The notes: generated from the letters alone by a model not told the origin. A stretch of DNA of 64,000 nt from Tissierellales bacterium (GCA_025210965.1 JAOAQY010000034.1:32207-96206), one strand, 5' to 3'; shown: positions 23,249 to 31,546, counted from the first letter of the stretch. Program-made: numbers and translations.

Positions 23249-24358
23249 CTAATCAAATAGTAAATTTTTTCTACGCATACCAACGCTTAGTGCCATACCT
23301 ACTCCCAATAAGTTTGATAGCAATGCAGTTCCACCATAACTTATAAATGGAAGAGGTATTCCGGTAACAGGCATAAGCCCCATATTCATACCTACATTTT
23401 CGATAACATGAAATAGAATCATAGCTAAAATTCCCATATTTAGGAGAGAACCATAAAGATCTTTACTGTCCCTAGCTAGTTTGATTAATCTATAAAAAAT
23501 AACTAGATAGAGAAATAATAGAAACATGCCACCAGCAAAACCAAAAACCTCACCAATTACTGAAAAAATCATATCAGTATGATTTTCAGGTAGATAACCA
23601 TATTTTATAAATTTTGCATCTTCAAGGCCCCTGCCAAAAAGCATTCCCGAGCCGATAGCTGTTTTAGCTTGCAAAACTTGATAGCCACTGCCGGTAGGAT
23701 CTTTTGTTGGGTCAAGAAAGACAAGTATTCTTTGTTGTTGATATTCGTCGAATTTAAGCCAAAGTAAAGGCATACTCAAAAGCACAACAGAGATAGCTGA
23801 AAGAATATATTTCCAATTTAAGCCTGCAACGAATAGCATTATAGCTATTATAAAAGTACATACCATAGCTGTTCCAAAGTCGTTTTCAAGAATTAAAGCA
23901 ACTGGGAAAAATGAAAATACTAAAACTTTTATAAGTGTAAGTGGTTCGTTTATATGCTCTTTATTTAGATCAATGAATTTACCTACACAGATTATAATTG
24001 AAATTTTTGCTATTTCTGAGGGTTGAAATCTTATAAAACTACCTATAACTAGCCAACTTTTCGCTCCATTAGCCTCATCACCTATTAACATAACTAAAAT
24101 TAGTAAAAAACAAGTGATTATGTAAATTGGGATGTATAGTTTCCCTATAAATTCATAGTCGATAAAAAGCAAAAGAGCTATAGCAAAGATTCCCAAAACT
24201 AATGCAGCACCTTGAGGTTTTAGGTATCTAAAAAAGCCTGAACTGGAATTTACAGTAGCAACATATATAGTGACCATTCCAAAACAAGAAATAACAATAG
24301 TTGTTATCAATAATGGCCAGTCAAAATATTTTAAAAGTTTTTTATCAAAATTAAACAC
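23249..24358 (-). CDS. rodA: FtsW/RodA/SpoVE family peptidoglycan glycosyltransferase
   Basis: It has the SEDS profile (...DFGTAMV..., ...PENHTDMIFSVIGEVFGF..., ...PVTGIPLPFISYGGT...). The RBS GGAGTG lies 5 nt before GTG at 24358. The ORF-track upstream extension lacks an RBS. Confidence 0.8.
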   Translation of the reverse strand: MFNFDKKLLKYFDWPLLITTIVISCFGMVTIYVATVNSSSGFFRYLKPQGAALVLGIFAIALLLFIDYEFIGKLYIPIYIITCFLLILVMLIGDEANGAKSWLVIGSFIRFQPSEIAKISIIICVGKFIDLNKEHINEPLTLIKVLVFSFFPVALILENDFGTAMVCTFIIAIMLFVAGLNWKYILSAISVVLLSMPLLWLKFDEYQQQRILVFLDPTKDPTGSGYQVLQAKTAIGSGMLFGRGLEDAKFIKYGYLPENHTDMIFSVIGEVFGFAGGMFLLFLYLVIFYRLIKLARDSKDLYGSLLNMGILAMILFHVIENVGMNMGLMPVTGIPLPFISYGGTALLSNLLGVGMALSVGMRRKNLLFD

Positions 24359-24478
24359 AGAATCACTCCGTTTCAAGTACAAAAAGTCAAAATAGACTAG
24401 ATTATTAATCATAAAAATTATATCATAAAATAATACTAGAATATATGAGTATTTTGTGTAAATCAATATTTATAGGAG

Positions 24479-25321
24479 TTGATGTTATTGAATATAGGGT
24501 GTCACTTATCTGTTGCAAAAGGATTTTATAAAGCAGGATTACAAGCATGCGAAATTGGAGCAAATACATTTCAATTTTTTACTAGGAATCCTCGAGGTGG
24601 TAAAGCAAAAGCTTTAGATACTGAAGATATAGATAAATTGAAAGTGCTAATGAGAGAACATCAATTTAGCAATTTGTGCGCACATGCATCGTACACAATG
24701 AATTTGTGCTCAAATAATGAAGATACTAGAGACTTTGCAAAACAATTATTTAGAGATGATTTAAAGAGGTTGAAGCAATTGCCAAGATCATACTATATTT
24801 TTCATCCAGGTTCTCATGTAAAACAAGGTAGTGAGAAAGGAATAGAATATATAATTAGTGCACTTAATGAAATATTACTAGAGGATACGGAGACGTATAT
24901 ATTGCTTGAGACTATGGCGGGAAAAGGAAGTGAAGTTGGCAGGAATTTGAATGAAATAAAGAATATAATTGATGGAGTTAAGTATAATAAGCAGTTAGGA
25001 GTGTGTTTAGATACTTGTCATTTGTATTCTTCGGGATATGATTTAAAAAATAATTTAAATGGTGTAGTTTCAGAAATTGACAAGATAGTTGGATTAGAAA
25101 AAGTTAAAGCCATGCATTTAAATGATAGTAAAACTGAATTTGCATCATTTAAAGATCGTCATGAAAAATTAGGCGAAGGTAGCCTTGGATGGGATACAAT
25201 TGAATCGATTGTCAATCATACTGCGTTTGAGAATATAGTATTTAATTTGGAAACTCCTAATGAGTTGGAGGGATATAAACGCGAAATAGAGATTGTTAGA
25301 AATTTTGTGACGAATAATTAA
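24479..25321 (+). CDS. nfo: Deoxyribonuclease IV (endonuclease IV)
   Basis: It has an AP endonuclease family 2 pattern (IGCHLS..., FHPGSH, CLDTCHLYSSGYD, MHLNDSK). The exact start (24479-24491) is ambiguous. Confidence 0.85.
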   Translation: MMLLNIGCHLSVAKGFYKAGLQACEIGANTFQFFTRNPRGGKAKALDTEDIDKLKVLMREHQFSNLCAHASYTMNLCSNNEDTRDFAKQLFRDDLKRLKQLPRSYYIFHPGSHVKQGSEKGIEYIISALNEILLEDTETYILLETMAGKGSEVGRNLNEIKNIIDGVKYNKQLGVCLDTCHLYSSGYDLKNNLNGVVSEIDKIVGLEKVKAMHLNDSKTEFASFKDRHEKLGEGSLGWDTIESIVNHTAFENIVFNLETPNELEGYKREIEIVRNFVTNN

Positions 25322-25410: not shown

Positions 25411-26598
25411 ATGTCAAATGTACATGAATTAGCTTATTTGAAAGATAAAATAGAAGACCTAAAGGAAAGTGGTGTTTATAGAAAGCTACCAGTATTAGGA
25501 GGGGCTTGTGATGCAGAGGCAGAACTTAACGGAAAAGATGTTATAAATTTATCTTCTAATAACTACTTAGGATTTGCGAATCATCCTAGAATTAAAGAAG
25601 CTGCAAAGAAAGCTATAGACAAATACGGAGTAGGAGCAGGTGCTGTTAGGACTATAGTTGGTAATATGGATATACACGAACAATTAGATAAAAAGTTGGC
25701 TGAATTTAAAAGAGAAGAAGCTGCTATAGCATTTCAATCTGGATTTAATTGTAATGCAGGAACTATACAAGCTATAACAGAAAAAGGGGACTTAATCATA
25801 TCAGATCAATTAAATCATGCTAGTATAATTGATGGGGCGAGACTTAGTAGAGCTGATAAGACTGTATTTAAACATTCTGATATGGAAGATCTAGAGAGAG
25901 TGCTAAAGGAAAAGAGAGATCAGTATAGAAATGTTTTAATCATAACAGATGGTGTATTCAGTATGGATGGTGATATTGCTAAATTACCAGAAATAGTTGA
26001 GTTAGCAGAAAAATATAATTGTATGACATATGTTGATGATGCGCATGGATCAGGGGTGTTAGGTGAAAGCGGAAGAGGAACGGTTGATCACTTTGGACTT
26101 CATGGCAGAGTGGATTTTAGTATCGGAACACTTTCTAAAGCGATTGGTTCTGTTGGCGGTTATGTAGCTTGTAGTAAAACTGCTTATGAATGGTTAAATC
26201 ATAGGGGAAGACCGATTCTATTTAGTACAGCACTTCCACCAGCATCTGTAGGAGCTATATTAGAAGCTCTTGGTATGCTTATGGAATCGACGGAATATAC
26301 TGATAGATTGTGGGATAATGCAAAGTATTTTAAATCTAAATTAGGCAAATTAGGATTTGATACAGGTCATAGCGAAACTCCTATTACGCCTGTTATAATT
26401 GGAGATGAAGCTAAAACTATGGAGTTTAGTAAAAAGCTTTTAGATGCTGGAGTTTATGTATCTGGAATTGTATTTCCAACAGTTCCAAAAGGAACAGGTC
26501 GCTTAAGATGCATGGTTACAGCAGGACATACAAAAGAACAACTTGATAAAGCAGTAGATATTTTTGAAAAGATTGGATCAGAAATGTCTTTGATTTAA
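25411..26598 (+). CDS. kbl: Glycine C-acetyltransferase (2-amino-3-ketobutyrate CoA ligase)
   Basis: It has [38 protein letters not shown] and GTLSKA (PLP Lys), and is 395 aa. Confidence 0.8.
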
Positions 26599-26613
26599 GA
26601 ATTATGAAGCGAG

Positions 26614-26652
26614 AGAGCTAAATTTGTTAAATTCAAATTTAGTTCTTTTTTT
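26614..26652 (+). terminator. Intrinsic terminator after kbl
   Basis: The stem AGCTAAATTTG/CAAATTTAGTT (one G-U) is followed by TTTTTTT. Confidence 0.7.
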
Positions 26653-26817
26653 AGTTAAATAATCTGAAGATAAACTACATGTTTTTTGTATGTTTAAGTA
26701 AGAGAGTGAAATGTTATATACGTGATTTTGTTTGTAGTTAACAAATGATTCTTCATTTACAGTATAAAAAGAAGTATGATAGAATAGGAAGAGTGATTAA
26801 TATAAGGGGAAGTGGCT

Positions 26818-27459
26818 ATGCGGATATTGCAAAAAAAAGAGATTAAAAGAGTATTAGCTATACTAGAAGAAACTTATCCTGATGCAAAACCAGAACTAGA
26901 ATACACTACAGCATTTGAGCTTTTGATAGCAGTGATGCTTAGTGCGCAATGTACAGATAAGCGGGTTAATTTAGTTACTAGAGAATTGTTTAAAAAATAC
27001 AATACTCCTAAGACAATGATTGAATTGACAGTAGAAGAACTTGGCGAATTGATTAAGACTGCAGGATTGTACAAAAATAAAAGTAAAAATATTTTGGCAA
27101 CATGTAGAATTTTGATTGATGAGTACGATGCAGAGGTGCCTGATAATAGAAGTGATTTGGAAAGATTGCCAGGGGTAGGACGAAAAACTGCGAGTGTTGT
27201 GCTAAGTGTTTGGTTTGATATACCAGCTATTGCTGTTGACACGCATGTATTTAGGGTATCAAATAGAATAGGGATTGCAGAGGCTAGTACGGTCAATAAA
27301 ACGGAAAATCAATTGATGGATAATATTCCAGAAAAGCAGTGGTCAAAAGCTCATCATTGGTTAATTTTTCATGGCAGGAGGCTGTGTAAAGCTAGAAATC
27401 CACTATGCGAAGATTGTCCAATTAATGCATTGTGTAAATATTATTCAAATATTAAATAG
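26818..27459 (+). CDS. nth: Endonuclease III
   Basis: It has the HhH-GPD motif (LPGVGRKTASVVL, VDTHVFRV) and the C-terminal 4Fe-4S cluster CX6CX2CX5C (CKARNPLCEDCPINALC). Confidence 0.9.
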   Translation: MRILQKKEIKRVLAILEETYPDAKPELEYTTAFELLIAVMLSAQCTDKRVNLVTRELFKKYNTPKTMIELTVEELGELIKTAGLYKNKSKNILATCRILIDEYDAEVPDNRSDLERLPGVGRKTASVVLSVWFDIPAIAVDTHVFRVSNRIGIAEASTVNKTENQLMDNIPEKQWSKAHHWLIFHGRRLCKARNPLCEDCPINALCKYYSNIK

Positions 27460-27485
27460 ATATATTAGAGTAGAGGTGAAAAATT

Positions 27486-29462
27486 ATGCCTACAGATAAA
27501 AGTAACATAAAAAAAGAAGTCATATTTGCGTTAGATATAGGTACGAAGACTGTAATTGGAGTAGTCGGATACTACGAAGGTGATGTTTTTAAAATACTTG
27601 ATTCGGAATTGGTAGAACACAAGAAGCGTTCTATGTACGATGGACAAATTCACAATATTCAAGAAGTTGCAGAAGTTGTGATTGATGTAAAACTAAAATT
27701 GGAAAATAGACTTAGTTTAAAATTTGATAAGGTTGCTATTGCAGCGGCTGGTAGAGCATTAAAGACATATAGAGAAAGATTTGATAGAGAAATTGACTTG
27801 AGTGTAAAGATAGATCAAAGGATGATAAATAGCCTTGAAATGGAAACTATACAAAAAGCTCAAGAACAATTAGAAAAAGAAAATGATACAAATGAGCCAC
27901 GTTATTATTGTGTAGGACATTCTATTATGAATTATTATTTGGATGATAATTTCATTGAGAGTCTTGAAGGTCATAGTGGGAATAAAATAGGGGTAGAAAT
28001 TATTGCTACATTCTTGCCACATGTTGTAGTTGATAGTTTGTATACTGTTATGGATAGAGCTGGGCTTGAGGTTATGAATCTTACATTGGAGCCTATTGCA
28101 GCCATAAACGTAGCGATAAAAAAAGATTTGAGATTATTAAATCTTTGCCTAGTCGACATTGGAGCTGGGACATCGGATATTGCCATAACAAAAGAAGGGC
28201 GTATAGTTGCATATGATATGGTACCTCTTGCTGGAGATGAAATAACTGAGAGGATAGCAAAGAGATACCTAATTGGTTTTGATATGGCAGAGAAAATAAA
28301 GAAGAATTTGTACAAAAACGTAAAGCATAAATTCAATGATGTAGTTGGGATTCCATATGAAATAGATTCAGAAGAAATATTAAATGAAGTAGATGAGGGT
28401 ATAAGTAAACTAGCTACAGAAATAGCAATTAAGATAAAGGGTTGTAACAAGAAGGCTCCAAGTGCGGTGCTCATGATTGGTGGAGGAAGTCAAATACCTA
28501 GATTGACAGATTATGTTGCTAGGGAATTGGATATGCCGGCAGAGAGAGTCGTAACGAAGAGTGCTGAAATCATAGATTCTGTAGACGGAATAGGAAGCGT
28601 ACTAGAGGGACCACAAGGGATTACACCTATAGGTATAGCAACTACTGCAGGACGATGTGCTAGTGTGAAAAATTTCATAGAGGTCTCTGTGAATGGTGAG
28701 AAGATTAAACTTATGCAGGCTAAGGATGTTAAGATATCCGATGCATTGGTTTTGGTTGGATATAATCCAAGAAAATTGATACCTAAAAAGGGCGATGATT
28801 TTATATACTTCTACAATGGCCAACTGAAAAGGGTGAGAGGATTACTTGGAAAACCAGCAATTATAAAAGTCAATGGAGAGGATGGTAATCTAGAAACTGT
28901 AATCTCTGATGGGGATATAATTGAGGTAGATGAAGCAACTCAGGGTAAAACTGTAGTCCCAAAAATTTCAGATGTTGTTAAACAGTATGGAATTTACTTT
29001 GATGAATCTTATGTAGATTTAATTGAAAATTTTAAAGTTAACGGAAATGATGTAGATGATGAGTTTCTGTTAAATGAAAAAGATTCTGTGGAAGTTGATG
29101 AAATTGCAAATGTTGAAATGTTTATGAGAAGATACCAGCTAAGCTCAAACGAATTTATACCTATTGTAAACGGAAAGATTGTTGAAAATCAATATTTGTT
29201 TGAAGATGGAGATGTTCTTAGTTTTGAAAAAAAAATTGAAAATAAGAATTCGATTATTGTACAGATAAATGGTGAAACTAAAAAACTTGAAACTGAAAAA
29301 GAAAAATTTGTTTTTGTTGATATATTTGACTATGTTGATATTGATTTGAAACAACCGCATGGTAAATTAATACTTAAGTTAAATGGAGAAAAAGCTGATT
29401 TTACTAGGGAACTAAAAGATGGGGATCTTTTGGATGTTTATTGGACAAAAGAGAATGTGTAA
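27486..29462 (+). CDS. Actin-fold (FtsA/PilM/EutJ-like) ATPase fused to a C-terminal array of ThiS/MoaD-like repeats
   Basis: The N-terminal part has the phosphate-1 motif FALDIGTKTVIG, the phosphate-2 motif LVDIGAGTSDIAI and the adenosine motif LMIGGGSQIP. The C-terminal ~260 aa contain four recurrences of (V/L)NG-x8-12-(D/E)GD-x-(I/L/V)-x-(V/F). Confidence 0.7.
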   Translation: MPTDKSNIKKEVIFALDIGTKTVIGVVGYYEGDVFKILDSELVEHKKRSMYDGQIHNIQEVAEVVIDVKLKLENRLSLKFDKVAIAAAGRALKTYRERFDREIDLSVKIDQRMINSLEMETIQKAQEQLEKENDTNEPRYYCVGHSIMNYYLDDNFIESLEGHSGNKIGVEIIATFLPHVVVDSLYTVMDRAGLEVMNLTLEPIAAINVAIKKDLRLLNLCLVDIGAGTSDIAITKEGRIVAYDMVPLAGDEITERIAKRYLIGFDMAEKIKKNLYKNVKHKFNDVVGIPYEIDSEEILNEVDEGISKLATEIAIKIKGCNKKAPSAVLMIGGGSQIPRLTDYVARELDMPAERVVTKSAEIIDSVDGIGSVLEGPQGITPIGIATTAGRCASVKNFIEVSVNGEKIKLMQAKDVKISDALVLVGYNPRKLIPKKGDDFIYFYNGQLKRVRGLLGKPAIIKVNGEDGNLETVISDGDIIEVDEATQGKTVVPKISDVVKQYGIYFDESYVDLIENFKVNGNDVDDEFLLNEKDSVEVDEIANVEMFMRRYQLSSNEFIPIVNGKIVENQYLFEDGDVLSFEKKIENKNSIIVQINGETKKLETEKEKFVFVDIFDYVDIDLKQPHGKLILKLNGEKADFTRELKDGDLLDVYWTKENV

Positions 29463-29484
29463 TTTTTAATATAGAGGTGTTTAA

Positions 29485-30171
29485 ATGGAGGCATTATATG
29501 ATAAGCATTTTACTTGTCCGGTTTGCAAGGATGAGTTTACTACGAAGCAGGTTAAGAAAAAGCATATTAAAGTTTTGAAGAGGGATTCGGATTTAATGGT
29601 TCATTATGATGCTGAGAATCCTATGGTGTATAGTATTGTTGTTTGTAAAAAATGTGGATATTCTAATTTGGCAAACAAGTTTGAAGAATTGAATTATAAG
29701 AAGAAGCAATTATATCAAGAAAATTTGTCGAAAATTTGGAAAGAAAAAGACTATACTGGAGAGAGAACAGTAAGGGAAGGTATTGAGACATACAAGCTTA
29801 TGTTGTTTTGCGAAAATTTAGTTGGAGCAAAGCATTATGAAAAAGCAGGTACTATTCTCAAAATTTCTTGGCTGTATAGGATACTTGGAGAAGCAGAAGA
29901 AGAAATAAAATTTCAAGAGATGGCTTTGGCTTTATATCAAGAGGCATTTGAAACTGAAGATTTAAGTAGAGGAGCAGTCAATGAAATCACTGTTAATTAT
30001 TTGATTGCGGAGTTAGCTTTTAGATTAGGAGAACTTGACCTTGCAACAAAGTGGATGAGTTCGTTGATTTCTAATAGAAATTTAAAAAATCATCCTCAAA
30101 TAGAAAAATTAGCAAAGGAACAATGGCTCAAAATAAAAGAAAAGAAGCAAAGTGATTCGGGGGAGAGTTAG
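29485..30171 (+). CDS. DUF2225-like protein (N-terminal zinc ribbon + helical/TPR-like C-terminal half)
   Basis: It has CPVC...x35...CKKCGY followed by a helical repeat region. It is separated from the upstream gene by 22 nt. Confidence 0.65.
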   Translation: MEALYDKHFTCPVCKDEFTTKQVKKKHIKVLKRDSDLMVHYDAENPMVYSIVVCKKCGYSNLANKFEELNYKKKQLYQENLSKIWKEKDYTGERTVREGIETYKLMLFCENLVGAKHYEKAGTILKISWLYRILGEAEEEIKFQEMALALYQEAFETEDLSRGAVNEITVNYLIAELAFRLGELDLATKWMSSLISNRNLKNHPQIEKLAKEQWLKIKEKKQSDSGES

Positions 30172-30184
30172 ATTGGATTATAAA

Positions 30185-30991
30185 ATGATAGCGCTTGACT
30201 TAGATGGTACGACATTAAATAGTGATGGTGTATTAGAGTTAGAGACTCGAAGAGTATTAAATTGTGTCAAAAGAAAAAACATTAAAATTATAGTTTGTAC
30301 TGGCCGCATATTTGGATCGGCTAGATATTTTTCTAAAGAATTAGAGACAGATACTTGGATAGTTTCTAGTAATGGAGCTTTTGTAGCTAAATATGATATG
30401 AGTGATTCGATTTTGAGTTGTGAAATGGATAGAGAACTTGTTGAAAAAACATTTAGTATTTTAGAAGATTCAGGTGTTTATTATCATTTTTATGATCACA
30501 TACACTATTATACTAAAGAGATGACATATAGAGCTAAAATGTATGATAAGTGGAACAAAAGCTTAAACGAAGAAGATCGCATAGTGATGAGTGTGATTGA
30601 TAATCCTATTGAGTTGATAAAGAATACTAATATGCCTGTTTACAAAATAGTGGTGCATGATAAAGACTGTGAATTGATTTCTAAATTAAAGTCAGAAATT
30701 GCTGATTTGGGTCTTGAGGTTGTTAGTTCTATTGCTGAGTCTTTTGATATAATGAAAAAAGGTGCGACTAAGGGTAATGCTTTGAAATGCATAGCTGATG
30801 AGATGGGAATTGATAGAGAAGAGATAATAGCAATTGGCGATAATGAAAATGATATATCTATGATTGAATTTGCAGGATTAGGAGTTGCAGTTGGTAATGC
30901 AGAACTGTGCTTAAAGGAAAAAGCAGACTTAGTTATTGAGTCTAATGATAATCAAGGAGTTGCAAAGTTTTTAAGGAATCTATGCTCATGA
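30185..30991 (+). CDS. Cof-type HAD-IIB family hydrolase
   Basis: It has the DLDGT motif, the GDNENDISM motif and a cap region. ATG 30185 gives the canonical MIALDLDGT N-terminus. Confidence 0.8.
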   Translation: MIALDLDGTTLNSDGVLELETRRVLNCVKRKNIKIIVCTGRIFGSARYFSKELETDTWIVSSNGAFVAKYDMSDSILSCEMDRELVEKTFSILEDSGVYYHFYDHIHYYTKEMTYRAKMYDKWNKSLNEEDRIVMSVIDNPIELIKNTNMPVYKIVVHDKDCELISKLKSEIADLGLEVVSSIAESFDIMKKGATKGNALKCIADEMGIDREEIIAIGDNENDISMIEFAGLGVAVGNAELCLKEKADLVIESNDNQGVAKFLRNLCS

Positions 30992-31072: not shown

Positions 31073-31546
31073 ATGATGAAGGCAGAATTGATAAATCCTT
31101 TTGTTCAGGCAAGTGTTGATATTATTTCGATGATGACTCAGATTAATTTGCAAAAAGGAACACCAAGATTGGTAGAGGATATAAAATTAGAAAGTGATAT
31201 TGGCATAGTAATTGGTTTGACTGGAGAAATTCGTGGTCAAGTTGTAATTAGGATGAAAATTGAAGATGCTAAGACTGTAATATCTAAGATGATGGGTGGA
31301 GTTGAAGTTACAGAAATTGATAGCATGGGTAAAAGTGCTATTTCTGAGCTTGGAAACATGATACTTGGAACTTCGGCAAATAATTTGTATTCTCTTGGTT
31401 ATACAATTGATATTACGCCACCAAGTATATTATCGGGGGATGGTATAATATATTCTACAGTGGACCAAAATATAATTGAAATGCCGTTTGAATCTGAAGA
31501 AATTAATGTTAGAGTTGCAATTTCATTAGTAGAAGATAAAGAGTAG
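31073..31546 (+). CDS. cheX: CheX-type chemotaxis phosphatase (CheC/CheX/FliY family)
   Basis: The N-terminus INPFVQASVDIISMM and ELGNMILG are typical of CheX. It is ~155 aa. Confidence 0.7.
   Translation: MMKAELINPFVQASVDIISMMTQINLQKGTPRLVEDIKLESDIGIVIGLTGEIRGQVVIRMKIEDAKTVISKMMGGVEVTEIDSMGKSAISELGNMILGTSANNLYSLGYTIDITPPSILSGDGIIYSTVDQNIIEMPFESEEINVRVAISLVEDKE

What the first reader, a model, noticed from the sequence alone, without database searches (positions are those of the whole stretch)
27486..30171. Actin-fold ATPase fused to four ThiS/MoaD-like repeats, paired with a DUF2225 zinc-ribbon protein: an uncharacterised two-gene module
Seen in sequence. The 658-aa protein starts with an FtsA/PilM/EutJ-type sugar-kinase/actin fold (DIGTKTVIG; DIGAGTSDIAI; IGGGSQIP). 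It lacks the FtsA C-terminal membrane-targeting helix. Instead, from about nt 28680 to 29450, it carries four recurrences of a short module ending in (V/L)NG-x8-12-L/F-x-(D/E)GD-x-(I/L/V)-(E/S/D)-(V/F). These are KVNGEDGNLETVISDGDIIEVDE, KVNGNDVDDEFLLNEKDSVEVDE, IVNGKIVENQYLFEDGDVLSFE and LNGEKADFTRELKDGDLLDVYW. Two units also have the leading xVNGE strand (VSVNGEKIKL, VQINGETKKL). This pattern resembles the first and last strands of ThiS/MoaD beta-grasp proteins, but here no C-terminal GG is present. The next gene, 22 nt downstream and probably co-transcribed, encodes a zinc-ribbon (CPVC...CKKCGY) plus helical-repeat protein of the DUF2225 type. Inference: this may be a polymer-forming or nucleotide-switch ATPase that displays an array of ubiquitin-like adaptor domains and works with a Zn-ribbon/TPR-like partner. 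I know of no experimentally established function for this pair.
Basis: partly seen in the sequence, partly recalled or inferred. Interest (0 to 1): 0.6.

Follow-up and report, generated by a model that had tools for sequence, protein, structure and literature searches.

The report
FtsA paralogue with ubiquitin-like tail
This is a widespread but unstudied second copy of the cell-division protein FtsA in Clostridia-type bacteria, whose membrane anchor is replaced by three ubiquitin-like domains; its pairing with the neighbouring zinc-ribbon gene holds only in some relatives.

Summary
Window 27486-29462 (+) encodes a 658-aa protein. Residues ~10-392 model as an FtsA-type actin fold with all nucleotide-binding motifs. 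Residues 395-658 model as tandem beta-grasp (ThiS/MoaD/TGS/ubiquitin-like) domains with no C-terminal Gly-Gly. The four motif recurrences are real, but the model shows three complete beta-grasp domains. The second recurrence is a 27-residue insertion inside the middle domain.

It is not the canonical FtsA, which lies beside ftsZ on another contig. The tail family occurs in 208 of 401 sampled genomes of the phylum and has at least 1,592 representative clusters. Sources name it inconsistently, and I found no paper on it.

The gene 22 nt downstream is a clear DUF2225 protein (zinc ribbon plus TPR). The pairing is only partly conserved: 21 of 80 related loci carry DUF2225 downstream, 17 of them with a VanW/Ldt4-type L,D-transpeptidase gene in between. 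That gene was not found in this genome. Elsewhere the two genes usually lie far apart.

Other relatives carry a membrane GAF-GGDEF cyclase or a PilZ protein directly downstream. DUF2225 is often fused to a cyclic-nucleotide-binding domain.

Best reading: a cytoplasmic FtsA-like scaffold or adaptor linked to the envelope and to second-messenger signalling. The mechanism is inferred.

The parts
26812..27459 (+). Endonuclease III (nth) gene, 26 nt upstream. It is the most often conserved neighbour of the family.
   Evidence: Pfam gives HhH-GPD 2.2e-26 and EndIII_4Fe-2S. An nth homologue lies upstream on the same strand in 35 of 80 related loci. It lies within 400 nt in 29 of the 74 loci that have at least 800 nt of upstream sequence.
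27473..27478 (+). Shine-Dalgarno-like GAGGTG, 7 nt before the ATG of the FtsA-like gene.
   Evidence: Read directly from the sequence.
27486..29462 (+). Gene for the 658-aa FtsA paralogue with a beta-grasp tail (P0001).
   Evidence: ORF list and translation. Homologues of 598-716 aa share 45-98% identity. The full-length model has pLDDT 84.3.
27513..28661 (+). FtsA-type actin-fold ATPase domain (residues ~10-392), including a 1C-like inserted subdomain and the phosphate-1, phosphate-2 and adenosine motifs.
   Evidence: Foldseek matches FtsA 7q6f/7q6g/7q6i/7q6d at E about 1e-28, TM-target 0.85-0.87 and rmsd 2.9-3.4 A. PilM scores lower, at TM-target 0.68-0.79. A PDB profile search gives FtsA at 8e-20. 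D17, G19, T20, D224, G226-D231, G332 and G333 are invariant in 50 homologues.
28668..28943 (+). Beta-grasp domain 1 (residues 395-486), TGS/SAMP-like, with a beta-hairpin insertion.
   Evidence: VIA-align places model residues 9-100 on TGS 3hvz (Z 7.4), SAMP1 4hro (Z 7.3), BubA 9ea8 (Z 7.3) and SpoT TGS 7qpr (Z 7.1). N427, P428, R429 and P433 are at least 90% conserved.
28986..29246 (+). Beta-grasp domain 2 (residues 501-587), ThiS/MoaD/ubiquitin-like.
   Evidence: VIA-align places model residues 111/116-201 on Mth1743 1ryj (Z 8.1, 66 of 70 residues aligned), TT1568 2cu3 (Z 8.1), ThiS 1zud (Z 7.8) and MoaD 1fm0 (Z 7.6).
29022..29102 (+). 27-residue three-stranded insertion (residues 513-539) inside beta-grasp domain 2.
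   Evidence: This is an inference. ThiS-like chains align 59-66 residues over an 85-91-residue span of the model. The strands at 513-539 have no helix between them. The module matches the other three at the profile level.
29247..29459 (+). Beta-grasp domain 3 (residues 588-658), MoaD/Urm1/ThiS-like. It ends ...DVYWTKENV, with no Gly-Gly.
   Evidence: VIA-align places model residues 202-272 on MoaD 6jbz (Z 7.0), Urm1 7q5n (Z 6.9) and ThiS 3cwi (Z 6.8). Pfam Ub-Mut7C hits residues 629-657. W653 is at least 90% conserved.
29474..29479 (+). Shine-Dalgarno-like GAGGTG, 5 nt before the ATG of the DUF2225 gene, inside the 22-nt intergenic gap.
   Evidence: Read directly from the sequence. No terminator-like hairpin was found between the genes.
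29485..30171 (+). Gene for the 228-aa DUF2225 protein (P0002): an N-terminal four-cysteine zinc ribbon followed by a TPR-like helical region.
   Evidence: Pfam gives PF09986 at 2.2e-64 over profile positions 1-213 of 214, and TPR_12 at 9.5e-5. C11, C14, C54 and C57 are invariant in 20 homologues.
29515..29655 (+). Zinc-ribbon part of DUF2225 (CPVC ... CKKCGY, residues 11-57).
   Evidence: Invariant C11, P12, C14, C54, C57, G58 and Y59.

Best explanation
Shown: the 658-aa protein is a paralogue of FtsA and not the divisome FtsA. It is a cytoplasmic actin-fold protein with intact nucleotide-binding motifs. The C-terminal membrane-targeting helix of FtsA is replaced by three tandem beta-grasp (ubiquitin/ThiS/TGS-like) domains that cannot be conjugated, because there is no terminal Gly-Gly and no E1/E2 genes nearby.

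Inferred: it acts as an ATP-dependent scaffold or adaptor. The FtsA-like body would self-associate or switch conformation with nucleotide, as FtsA and PilM do. The beta-grasp array would serve as a non-covalent docking surface, or possibly a ligand-binding surface.

The process it serves is most likely envelope- or peptidoglycan-related and tied to cyclic-nucleotide signalling. In relatives the gene is followed either by an Ldt4-type VanW L,D-transpeptidase gene plus DUF2225, or by a membrane GAF-GGDEF diguanylate cyclase, or in one locus by a PilZ protein.

In this genome the VanW gene was not found, which leaves the FtsA-like gene and DUF2225 directly adjacent. They are probably co-transcribed with nth upstream.

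DUF2225 is a cytoplasmic zinc-ribbon/TPR protein that in other genomes carries an N-terminal cyclic-nucleotide-binding domain. It is most likely a regulatory partner in this lineage rather than an obligatory subunit.
For: Identity:
- FtsA fold at TM-target 0.85-0.87, and a profile hit to solved FtsA at 8e-20.
- ATP-binding motifs invariant in 50 homologues.
- TIGR01174 ftsA scores 96.9 bits against a cut-off of 175.85.
- The true FtsA scores 369.6 bits and lies next to ftsZ on C217. It is 24% identical over 229 residues.
- Beta-grasp tail: Foldseek gives 24 hits at E<=1e-3, led by linear tetra-ubiquitin (5.8e-8) and bacterial multi-ubiquitin proteins. VIA gives three domains at Z 7-8.

A fixed architecture:
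- All 80 related loci keep at least part of the tail.
- 1,592 representative clusters match the tail profile. Of the best 150, 106 are 611-967 aa.
- The tail is found in 208 of 401 sampled genomes of the phylum.

Context:
- nth lies upstream in 35 of 80 loci.
- VanW (PG_binding_4+VanW+G5) lies directly downstream in 18 of 80.
- DUF2225 lies downstream on the same strand in 21 of 80. That is 18 of the 61 loci with at least 2.5 kb of downstream sequence.
- VanW lies between in 17 of those 21. The only VanW locus without DUF2225 (L024) ends at a contig edge.
- A membrane GAF-GGDEF gene lies directly downstream in 17 of 80, with a median gap of 15 nt.
- A PilZ protein lies downstream in L055, and a GAF-HD-GYP gene upstream in 10 loci.

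Independent re-association: in G387 (L101) a cNMP_binding-DUF2225 gene lies 142 nt upstream of the FtsA-like gene on the same strand, which is the reverse order.

DUF2225 and signalling: cNMP_binding-DUF2225 fusions occur in 10 of the 13 N-terminally extended reading frames scanned.

Co-occurrence in the 401 genomes: both genes in 121, the tail only in 87, DUF2225 only in 33, neither in 160.

VanW domains are L,D-transpeptidases, and Ldt4 has the same PG4-VanW-G5 architecture (PMC11348318, passages read).

This genome: no VanW hit. Tight spacing and ribosome-binding sites.
Against: - No direct evidence for ATP hydrolysis, polymerisation, partner binding or any phenotype.
- The contexts differ between lineages, and the family has no constant operon partner apart from nth, a DNA-repair gene that fits none of the proposed roles.
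- In complete genomes that carry both genes they are usually hundreds of kilobases apart, for example G052, G163, G085, G061 and G269.
- None of 20 DUF2225 loci spread over different families has the FtsA-like gene within 5 kb.
- VanW-DUF2225 pairs exist in genomes with no hit to the tail (L097, L098). DUF2225 may therefore belong with VanW rather than with the FtsA paralogue.
- The cytoplasmic N-terminal tails of the linked VanW proteins are only about 5-12 basic residues with no conserved motif. That argues against PilM-PilN-type tail capture.
- The co-occurrence statistic is not corrected for shared ancestry.
- GGDEF genes are very numerous in these genomes. This genome alone gives 32 matches to a GGDEF query, so some proximity is expected by chance. 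Seventeen immediately adjacent cases are harder to dismiss that way.
- The 80 loci are those most similar to the query, so they are biased towards close relatives.
Confidence: 0.45

Rival explanations
1. The adjacency is an accident of gene loss and the two proteins do not work together. The ancestral order was nth - FtsA-like - vanW - DUF2225 - ogt. Loss of vanW in this lineage brought the two genes together. DUF2225 is an independent regulator, or a VanW-linked one, and the FtsA paralogue acts without it.
For: - 17 of the 21 loci with DUF2225 downstream have VanW between the two genes.
- No VanW was found in this genome.
- VanW-DUF2225 pairs occur in genomes with no hit to the tail (L097, L098).
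- 87 of the 208 genomes with the tail have no DUF2225 hit, and 33 genomes have DUF2225 only.
- None of 20 family-spread DUF2225 loci has the FtsA-like gene nearby.
- DUF2225 has fusion partners of its own: cNMP_binding, and an unassigned C-terminal domain.
Against: - DUF2225 is retained next to the FtsA-like gene even though no VanW gene was found in this genome.
- Direct adjacency recurs in 4 other loci (L002, L004, L031, L042).
- It recurs in the reverse order, with a cNMP fusion, in G387.
- The two genes occur together in 121 of 401 genomes, with an odds ratio of 6.7 that is not corrected for phylogeny.
Confidence: 0.3
2. The protein is itself a second-messenger effector. The beta-grasp array or the FtsA-like body binds c-di-GMP or a cyclic mononucleotide, and this controls its assembly. 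Cell-wall or division behaviour would then be coupled to the neighbouring cyclase, phosphodiesterase or cNMP-DUF2225 proteins.
For: - A GAF-GGDEF gene lies directly downstream in 17 of 80 loci, with a median gap of 15 nt. A PilZ protein lies downstream in L055, and a GAF-HD-GYP gene upstream in 10 loci.
- cNMP_binding-DUF2225 fusions are common, and one is adjacent to the FtsA-like gene.
- Some known beta-grasp families bind soluble ligands (recalled knowledge, not tested here).
- Basic motifs in domain 1 (GYNPRKLIPKRG) and the FIFVDIF..IDFDL..P.G motif in domain 3 are highly conserved.
Against: - No recognised c-di-GMP-binding motif or domain was detected by Pfam or NCBIfam.
- The GGDEF link is confined to one set of lineages.
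- This genome has no full-length orthologue of the linked membrane cyclase.
Confidence: 0.15
3. It is a ubiquitin-like conjugation or anti-phage component (Bub/Bil-like), in which the tandem beta-grasp domains are conjugated or form defence filaments.
For: Foldseek hits to the Citrobacter and E. coli multi-ubiquitin proteins 9d5a and 9cd2 at E about 1e-6, and VIA Z 7.3 to BubA 9ea8.
Against: - There is no C-terminal Gly. The protein ends YWTKENV, and the family consensus ends IYWxK.
- No E1, E2 or JAB-type gene appears among the recurrent neighbour clusters of the 80 loci or beside the gene in the window.
- PADLOC gives no meaningful hit.
- The gene is single-copy, sits in a conserved chromosomal context and is present in half of the sampled genomes, which is unlike a defence island.
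Confidence: 0.02
4. It is simply the organism's FtsA (the Z-ring membrane tether), or a PilM of a type IV pilus machine, as public annotations say.
For: Public names include 'cell division protein FtsA', 'pilus assembly protein PilM' and 'rod shape-determining protein'. The fold is most like FtsA.
Against: - It scores below the curated cut-offs of ftsA (96.9 against 175.85) and pilM (68.5 against 133).
- A canonical FtsA lies next to ftsZ elsewhere in the genome.
- It has no membrane-targeting helix.
- No pilN, pilO or other pilus genes lie in the window neighbourhood or among the recurrent neighbours.
Confidence: 0.05

Closest known systems
FtsA (divisome actin homologue; solved structures 7q6f, 7q6d, 1e4g, 3wqt)
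   Same: The same actin fold, with the 1C-type inserted subdomain in place of 1B (TM-target 0.85-0.87, rmsd 2.9-3.4 A). The phosphate-1, phosphate-2 and adenosine motifs are conserved.
   Different: - 24% identity to the genome's own FtsA, and below the TIGR01174 cut-off.
- Not next to ftsZ.
- Pfam SHS2_FTSA is not detected, although the canonical copy has it.
- The C-terminal linker and amphipathic membrane helix are replaced by about 265 residues of beta-grasp domains.
PilM (type IV pilus cytoplasmic actin-like protein that binds the PilN N-terminal tail)
   Same: An FtsA-like fold without a membrane helix, acting as a cytoplasmic adaptor for a membrane protein. The Pfam PilM_2 hit is 1.7e-9.
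   Different: - Lower structural similarity than to FtsA (TM-target 0.68-0.79), and below the TIGR01175 cut-off.
- No pilN, pilO, pilB or pilC genes nearby.
- The linked VanW proteins have only very short, unconserved cytoplasmic tails.
- PilM has no beta-grasp tail.
ThiS/MoaD/Urm1/SAMP sulfur-carrier and modifier beta-grasp proteins
   Same: Each of the three tail domains superposes on these proteins (Z 6.8-8.1, rmsd 1.9-3.0 A). The VNG and GD.I.V sequence motifs of the first and last strands recur.
   Different: - No C-terminal Gly-Gly.
- No adenylating E1-like partner.
- The domains are internal and tandem, fused to an ATPase.
- Domain 1 has a hairpin insertion, and domain 2 a three-stranded insertion.
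Bacterial multi-ubiquitin proteins of Bub operons (9d5a, 9cd2, 9d59; bioRxiv 10.1101/2024.11.21.623966, listing and start of abstract seen)
   Same: Several beta-grasp domains in one bacterial polypeptide. Foldseek E is about 1e-6.
   Different: Per that abstract, those proteins are encoded with predicted E1, E2 and deubiquitinase genes. Here there is no such operon, no conjugatable C-terminus and an N-terminal FtsA-like ATPase.
TGS domain (RelA/SpoT, ThrRS, Obg/DRG)
   Same: Tail domain 1 superposes on TGS domains: 3hvz at Z 7.4 and 19% identity, and SpoT 7qpr at Z 7.1 and 23% identity. Pfam TGS scores 21.7 bits at residues 560-579.
   Different: The score is below the Pfam cut-off of 22.2. 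Nothing here indicates RNA binding, and the domain context is different.
DUF2225 / PF09986 (uncharacterised zinc-ribbon plus TPR family)
   Same: The downstream protein is a full-length member (217.6 bits).
   Different: No function is known for the family. Three papers mention it. I saw only the listing and the starts of their abstracts, and by title and abstract none addresses its function. This copy is the stand-alone form. Relatives carry an N-terminal cNMP-binding domain or an unassigned C-terminal domain of about 60-75 residues behind a low-complexity linker.

Membership tests
Canonical FtsA (NCBIfam TIGR01174 equivalog) | Whole-protein score at or above the curated cut-off | tested here: not met
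   96.9 bits against a cut-off of 175.85. The genome's other copy scores 369.6 bits.
Canonical FtsA (NCBIfam TIGR01174 equivalog) | Location in a division cluster next to ftsZ | tested here: not met
   The window gene lies between nth and DUF2225. The true FtsA lies in DUF881-DUF1290-ftsA-ftsZ on contig C217.
Canonical FtsA (NCBIfam TIGR01174 equivalog) | C-terminal amphipathic membrane-targeting helix | tested here: not met
   The C-terminus is the last strand of a beta-grasp domain. The canonical copy ends in an amphipathic tail.
Canonical FtsA (NCBIfam TIGR01174 equivalog) | Actin fold with a 1C subdomain and nucleotide-binding motifs | tested here: met
   Foldseek TM-target 0.85-0.87 to FtsA structures. 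The motifs are invariant in 50 homologues.
Canonical FtsA (NCBIfam TIGR01174 equivalog) | Binds the FtsZ C-terminal peptide and tethers the Z-ring | not testable with these tools
PilM (TIGR01175) | Score at or above the cut-off, and a pilMNO(PQ) gene context | tested here: not met
   68.5 bits against 133. No pilus genes lie in the window neighbourhood or among the recurrent neighbours of the 80 loci.
ThiS/MoaD-type sulfur carriers and ubiquitin-like modifiers | Beta-grasp fold | tested here: met
   Three domains at VIA Z 6.8-8.1 to ThiS, MoaD, Urm1 and SAMP1. The models are predictions with pLDDT 89.7.
ThiS/MoaD-type sulfur carriers and ubiquitin-like modifiers | Free C-terminal Gly-Gly for adenylation or thiocarboxylation | tested here: not met
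   The protein ends DVYWTKENV. The family consensus ends IYWxK. The first two domains are internal.
ThiS/MoaD-type sulfur carriers and ubiquitin-like modifiers | Partner E1-like adenylyltransferase (ThiF/MoeB) encoded nearby | tested here: not met
   None in the window genes scanned, and none among the recurrent neighbour clusters annotated.
Bub/Bil bacterial ubiquitination-like systems | Operon with E1, E2 and a deubiquitinase; recognised by defence-system models | tested here: not met
   No such neighbours. PADLOC gives only a 0.0012 hit over 34 residues of the ATPase motif.
TGS domain (PF02824) | Pfam score at or above the gathering threshold | tested here: inconclusive
   21.7 bits against 22.2. 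The structural match of domain 1 to TGS domains is Z 7.1-7.4. Precomputed Pfam lists PF02824 for several homologues.
DUF2225 (PF09986) | Full-length profile match above the cut-off, with the four-cysteine zinc ribbon | tested here: met
   217.6 bits against 21, over profile positions 1-213 of 214. C11, C14, C54 and C57 are invariant.

The most novel reading that the evidence does not exclude
A previously unrecognised cytoskeletal system of Clostridia-type bacteria. In this reading, an FtsA paralogue polymerises in the cytoplasm and displays an array of non-conjugatable ubiquitin-like domains. These domains recruit or read out envelope enzymes (Ldt4-type L,D-transpeptidase) and cyclic-nucleotide signalling proteins (GAF-GGDEF cyclase, PilZ, cNMP-DUF2225). 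Cell-wall cross-linking or cell shape would then be placed under second-messenger control, with DUF2225 as the zinc-ribbon/TPR coupling factor.
Probability: 0.15. Interest if true: 0.8.

Novelty: new variant of a known kind. Interest (0 to 1): 0.5.

Why it matters
Half of the sampled genomes of this phylum carry a second FtsA-like gene that annotation pipelines label as FtsA, PilM, MreB or DnaK. The fused ubiquitin-like array shows that it is a distinct protein with no assigned role.

If it organises L,D-transpeptidase-type wall synthesis or links division or shape proteins to c-di-GMP or cNMP signalling, it would add a new element to Gram-positive anaerobe cell biology. That group includes organisms in which 3-3 cross-linking is essential.

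It would also give a first functional handle on DUF2225. It would be an example of beta-grasp domains used as fixed scaffolding modules in bacteria.

At the least, the result corrects a systematic mis-annotation and shows that the apparent two-gene module here is a derived, lineage-specific arrangement.

Tried and rejected
- Complex prediction of the full FtsA-like protein (alignment A1) with DUF2225 (A4): no verdict, score 0.00 in both runs, controls not run. This is evidence neither for nor against binding.
- Sporulation link: rejected. SpoIVA is found in 324 of 401 sampled genomes, but not in this genome, which carries the FtsA-like gene. It is also missing in at least six other carriers (G330, G021, G030, G063, G087, G113). 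Families f17, f19 and f28 have SpoIVA in 4/4, 5/6 and 5/5 genomes but the tail in 0/4, 0/6 and 0/5. I did not compute the full overlap table.
- PilM-PilN-like capture of a VanW cytoplasmic tail: the 18 linked VanW proteins have only short basic N-termini with no conserved motif.
- DUF2225 homologue searches by word index: 'longer' found none and 'near' found only 6, so they were uninformative for a census of fusions. The census rests instead on 36 context loci and 31 fetched long-frame loci.
- The unassigned C-terminal domain of 11 DUF2225 proteins looked ribbon-helix-helix-like by eye. Neither a PDB profile search (best E 0.061) nor Pfam supports any assignment.
- Defence-system membership: PADLOC gave nothing.
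- Promoter and terminator scan: 46 promoter-like sites against 45.5 expected, and 3 terminator-like sites against 2.7 expected. A terminator-like hairpin at 26611-26649 and a TG-extended promoter-like site at 26756-26785 before nth are compatible with an nth-to-cof transcription unit, but the counts are not above chance.
- Expression: small contigs at 99% identity or more from metatranscriptome libraries cover parts of both genes. None bridges the junction, and DNA carry-over cannot be excluded. Parts without cover mean nothing.
- Literature searches for DUF2225, COG1655, FtsA with beta-grasp and ThiS, FtsA-like with Clostridia and ubiquitin-like, and 'FtsA paralog/homolog/second FtsA/FtsA-like protein' found nothing on this family. 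The library lacks most subscription journals.

Full report
**What is in the sequence**

Two co-directional ORFs occupy window 27486-29462 (658 aa, P0001) and 29485-30171 (228 aa, P0002). They are 22 nt apart, and each has a GAGGTG just upstream of its ATG. The long protein ends ...DVYWTKENV, without Gly-Gly.

Pfam finds FtsA (2.4e-14), MreB and PilM_2 in the N-terminal 390 residues. In the tail it finds weak Ub-Mut7C, ThiS and TGS hits. The short protein is a full-length DUF2225 (2.2e-64) with weak TPR hits.

No NCBIfam model reaches its cut-off. ftsA scores 96.9 bits against 175.85, and pilM 68.5 against 133.

**The N-terminal domain**

A model built on a 50-sequence alignment (pLDDT 84.3) matches solved FtsA structures best: 7q6f, 7q6g, 7q6i and 7q6d at E about 1e-28, TM-target 0.85-0.87 and rmsd 2.9-3.4 A. 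PilM (0.68-0.79), EutJ and MreB score lower. A profile search of PDB sequences gives the same order.

The phosphate-1 (DIGT), phosphate-2 (DIGAGTSD) and adenosine (GGGS) motifs are invariant in 50 homologues, so nucleotide binding is probably retained.

The genome has a canonical FtsA elsewhere. It is 427 aa long, scores 369.6 bits for TIGR01174 and carries Pfam SHS2_FTSA. It lies in a DUF881-DUF1290-ftsA-ftsZ cluster on contig C217 and ends in an amphipathic tail. It shares 24% identity with P0001 over 229 residues. P0001 is therefore a paralogue and not the divisome FtsA.

**The tail**

A separate model of residues 387-658 (pLDDT 89.7) gives 24 Foldseek hits at E<=1e-3. They are led by linear tetra-ubiquitin (5.8e-8) and by the multi-ubiquitin proteins of Citrobacter and E. 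coli (about 1e-6).

Re-alignment with VIA-align resolves three domains:
- Residues 395-486 match TGS, SAMP1 and BubA at Z 7.1-7.4.
- Residues 501-587 match Mth1743, ThiS and MoaD at Z 7.6-8.1.
- Residues 588-658 match MoaD, Urm1 and ThiS at Z 6.8-7.0.

Z values of 7-8 are in the range the tool calls common. The consistency across three domains, the Foldseek E-values and the Pfam hits together make the beta-grasp assignment secure.

In the middle domain, ThiS-like chains align 59-66 residues over a span of 85-91. That gives three complete beta-grasp domains plus one partial, nested copy.

At the profile level all four 'VNG...GD.I.V' modules match one another at 87-96% probability, so the recurrence is real.

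**How widespread the protein is**

The 120 best hits are 598-716 aa, carry FtsA/PilM/MreB Pfam hits and are named variously FtsA, PilM, rod shape-determining protein or DnaK.

A profile of the tail alone (A3) finds 1,592 representative clusters at E<=1e-3 and 606 at <=1e-30. Of the 150 listed, 106 are 611-967 aa, and in nearly all of those the array starts at about residue 370-610. The other 44 are 250-519 aa and may be fragments; I did not check.

The tail is found in 208 of 401 sampled genomes of the phylum. All 80 related genome loci fetched keep at least part of it. The atlas look-up returns only 'FtsA'-type automatic names. I found no paper on the family.

**Is the DUF2225 pairing conserved?**

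Among the 80 loci, which are the best matches and so are biased towards relatives, the counts are as follows:
- DUF2225 lies downstream on the same strand in 21 loci. That is 18 of the 61 loci with at least 2.5 kb of downstream sequence.
- It is directly adjacent in only 4 (L002, L004, L031, L042).
- In 17 a gene for a PG_binding_4-VanW-G5 protein lies between the two.
- The only VanW locus without DUF2225 stops at a contig end.

VanW domains are L,D-transpeptidases, and C. difficile Ldt4 has this same architecture (PMC11348318, passages read). This genome, at 95.8% completeness, has no VanW hit. The window arrangement therefore looks like the three-gene cluster minus VanW.

In the 401-genome sample, 154 genomes have DUF2225. 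Both genes occur in 121, the tail alone in 87, DUF2225 alone in 33 and neither in 160. The odds ratio is 6.7 but is not corrected for relatedness.

In complete genomes that hold both genes they are mostly far apart. None of 20 DUF2225 loci chosen across different families has the FtsA-like gene within 5 kb, although 17 of those genomes carry it.

Two observations pull in opposite directions. In G387, a cNMP_binding-DUF2225 gene sits 142 nt upstream of the FtsA-like gene, which is an independent arrangement in reverse order. But VanW-DUF2225 pairs also exist in genomes with no hit to the tail (L097, L098).

**Other contexts**

The most frequent neighbour is nth, upstream in 35 of 80 loci and within 400 nt in 29 of 74.

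A second group of lineages has a membrane-anchored GAF-GGDEF diguanylate cyclase directly downstream: 17 loci with a median gap of 15 nt. These often also have a GAF-HD-GYP gene (10 loci), glgA and htrA upstream, and recG downstream. L055 has a PilZ protein downstream, and L075 has an FtsW/RodA gene.

DUF2225 itself is fused to an N-terminal cyclic-nucleotide-binding domain in 10 of the 13 N-terminally extended reading frames I scanned. In 11 other cases it carries an unassigned C-terminal domain of about 60-75 residues behind a low-complexity linker.

This genome gives 32 matches to a GGDEF query but has no full-length orthologue of the linked cyclase.

**Interpretation**

What is shown: the protein is an FtsA paralogue with retained ATP-binding motifs. 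Its membrane anchor is replaced by three non-conjugatable beta-grasp domains. It is a fixed and widespread architecture.

What is inferred: it acts as a cytoplasmic, nucleotide-dependent scaffold or adaptor, with the tail as a docking or ligand-binding array. It would operate in an envelope or peptidoglycan process connected with cyclic-(di)nucleotide signalling. In this lineage DUF2225 would be a regulatory partner.

The main rival is that DUF2225 belongs with VanW, or acts alone, and that the adjacency here is a by-product of VanW loss.

Several other links were tested and not supported:
- Ubiquitin-like conjugation or defence: no Gly-Gly, no E1/E2, and PADLOC negative.
- A role as the canonical FtsA or as PilM.
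- A sporulation link.
- PilM-PilN-type capture of the VanW tail.

The complex prediction gave no verdict. Metatranscriptome contigs cover parts of both genes but do not bridge the junction.

**Verdict**

The protein is a new variant of a known kind. It is moderately interesting because it is common, consistently mis-annotated and functionally unknown.

Noticed in passing
L089-L092, L101, L107, L108, L122-L124 (DUF2225 genes in other genomes): DUF2225 is fused to an N-terminal cyclic-nucleotide-binding domain (PF00027) in 10 of the 13 N-terminally extended reading frames scanned. This suggests the family is an output module of cNMP signalling.
   Followed up: partly
L125-L135 (DUF2225 genes in other genomes): Eleven DUF2225 proteins carry a low-complexity linker followed by a conserved C-terminal domain of about 60-75 residues (LY.DQVEWL ... 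RA.LDAV ... EEELK). It has no Pfam or PDB sequence match. By eye it has a strand-helix-helix pattern, but that is unverified.
   Followed up: partly
L097 5835-7616 and L098 6885-8666: VanW (PG4-VanW-G5) and DUF2225 are adjacent in two genomes of one genus that gave no hit to the FtsA-like tail. The VanW-DUF2225 link therefore exists without the FtsA paralogue.
   Followed up: partly
L007, L008, L010, L012, L018, L020, L032, L033, L035-L037, L044, L050, L053, L063, L065 and others: In a second group of lineages the FtsA-like gene is followed at once by a polytopic-membrane, coiled-coil GAF-GGDEF cyclase. A GAF-HD-GYP phosphodiesterase, glgA and htrA often lie upstream, and a PsbP-like gene and recG downstream.
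   Followed up: partly
window 23249-24466 (-), 24479-25321 (+), 25411-26598 (+), 30152-30991 (+), 31073-31546 (+): Surrounding genes include endonuclease IV-like, a KBL-type aminotransferase, a Cof-type HAD hydrolase that overlaps or abuts the DUF2225 stop, and a CheX-like phosphatase. By my reading of its sequence, unscanned by Pfam, the 23249-24466 (-) ORF is an FtsW/RodA-type protein. The KBL and nth neighbours are shared with related loci. I did not check whether the others are conserved.
   Followed up: partly
G200:C14:378167-378895 and G134:C125:19417-20187: Two genomes show a single in-frame TAG inside the match to the beta-grasp tail. This could be a pseudogene, a sequencing error or stop-codon read-through; not examined.
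   Followed up: no
window's own genome: No SpoIVA match in this 95.8%-complete genome, whereas 324 of 401 sampled genomes of the phylum have one. The organism may be a non-sporulating lineage.
   Followed up: no
window 27831-29917: Short contigs at 99% identity or more from two coral-associated metatranscriptome runs, one microbial-mat metatranscriptome run and one run of unrecorded library type cover parts of both genes. This hints that the organism or a near relative occurs there, and possibly that the genes are expressed.
   Followed up: partly
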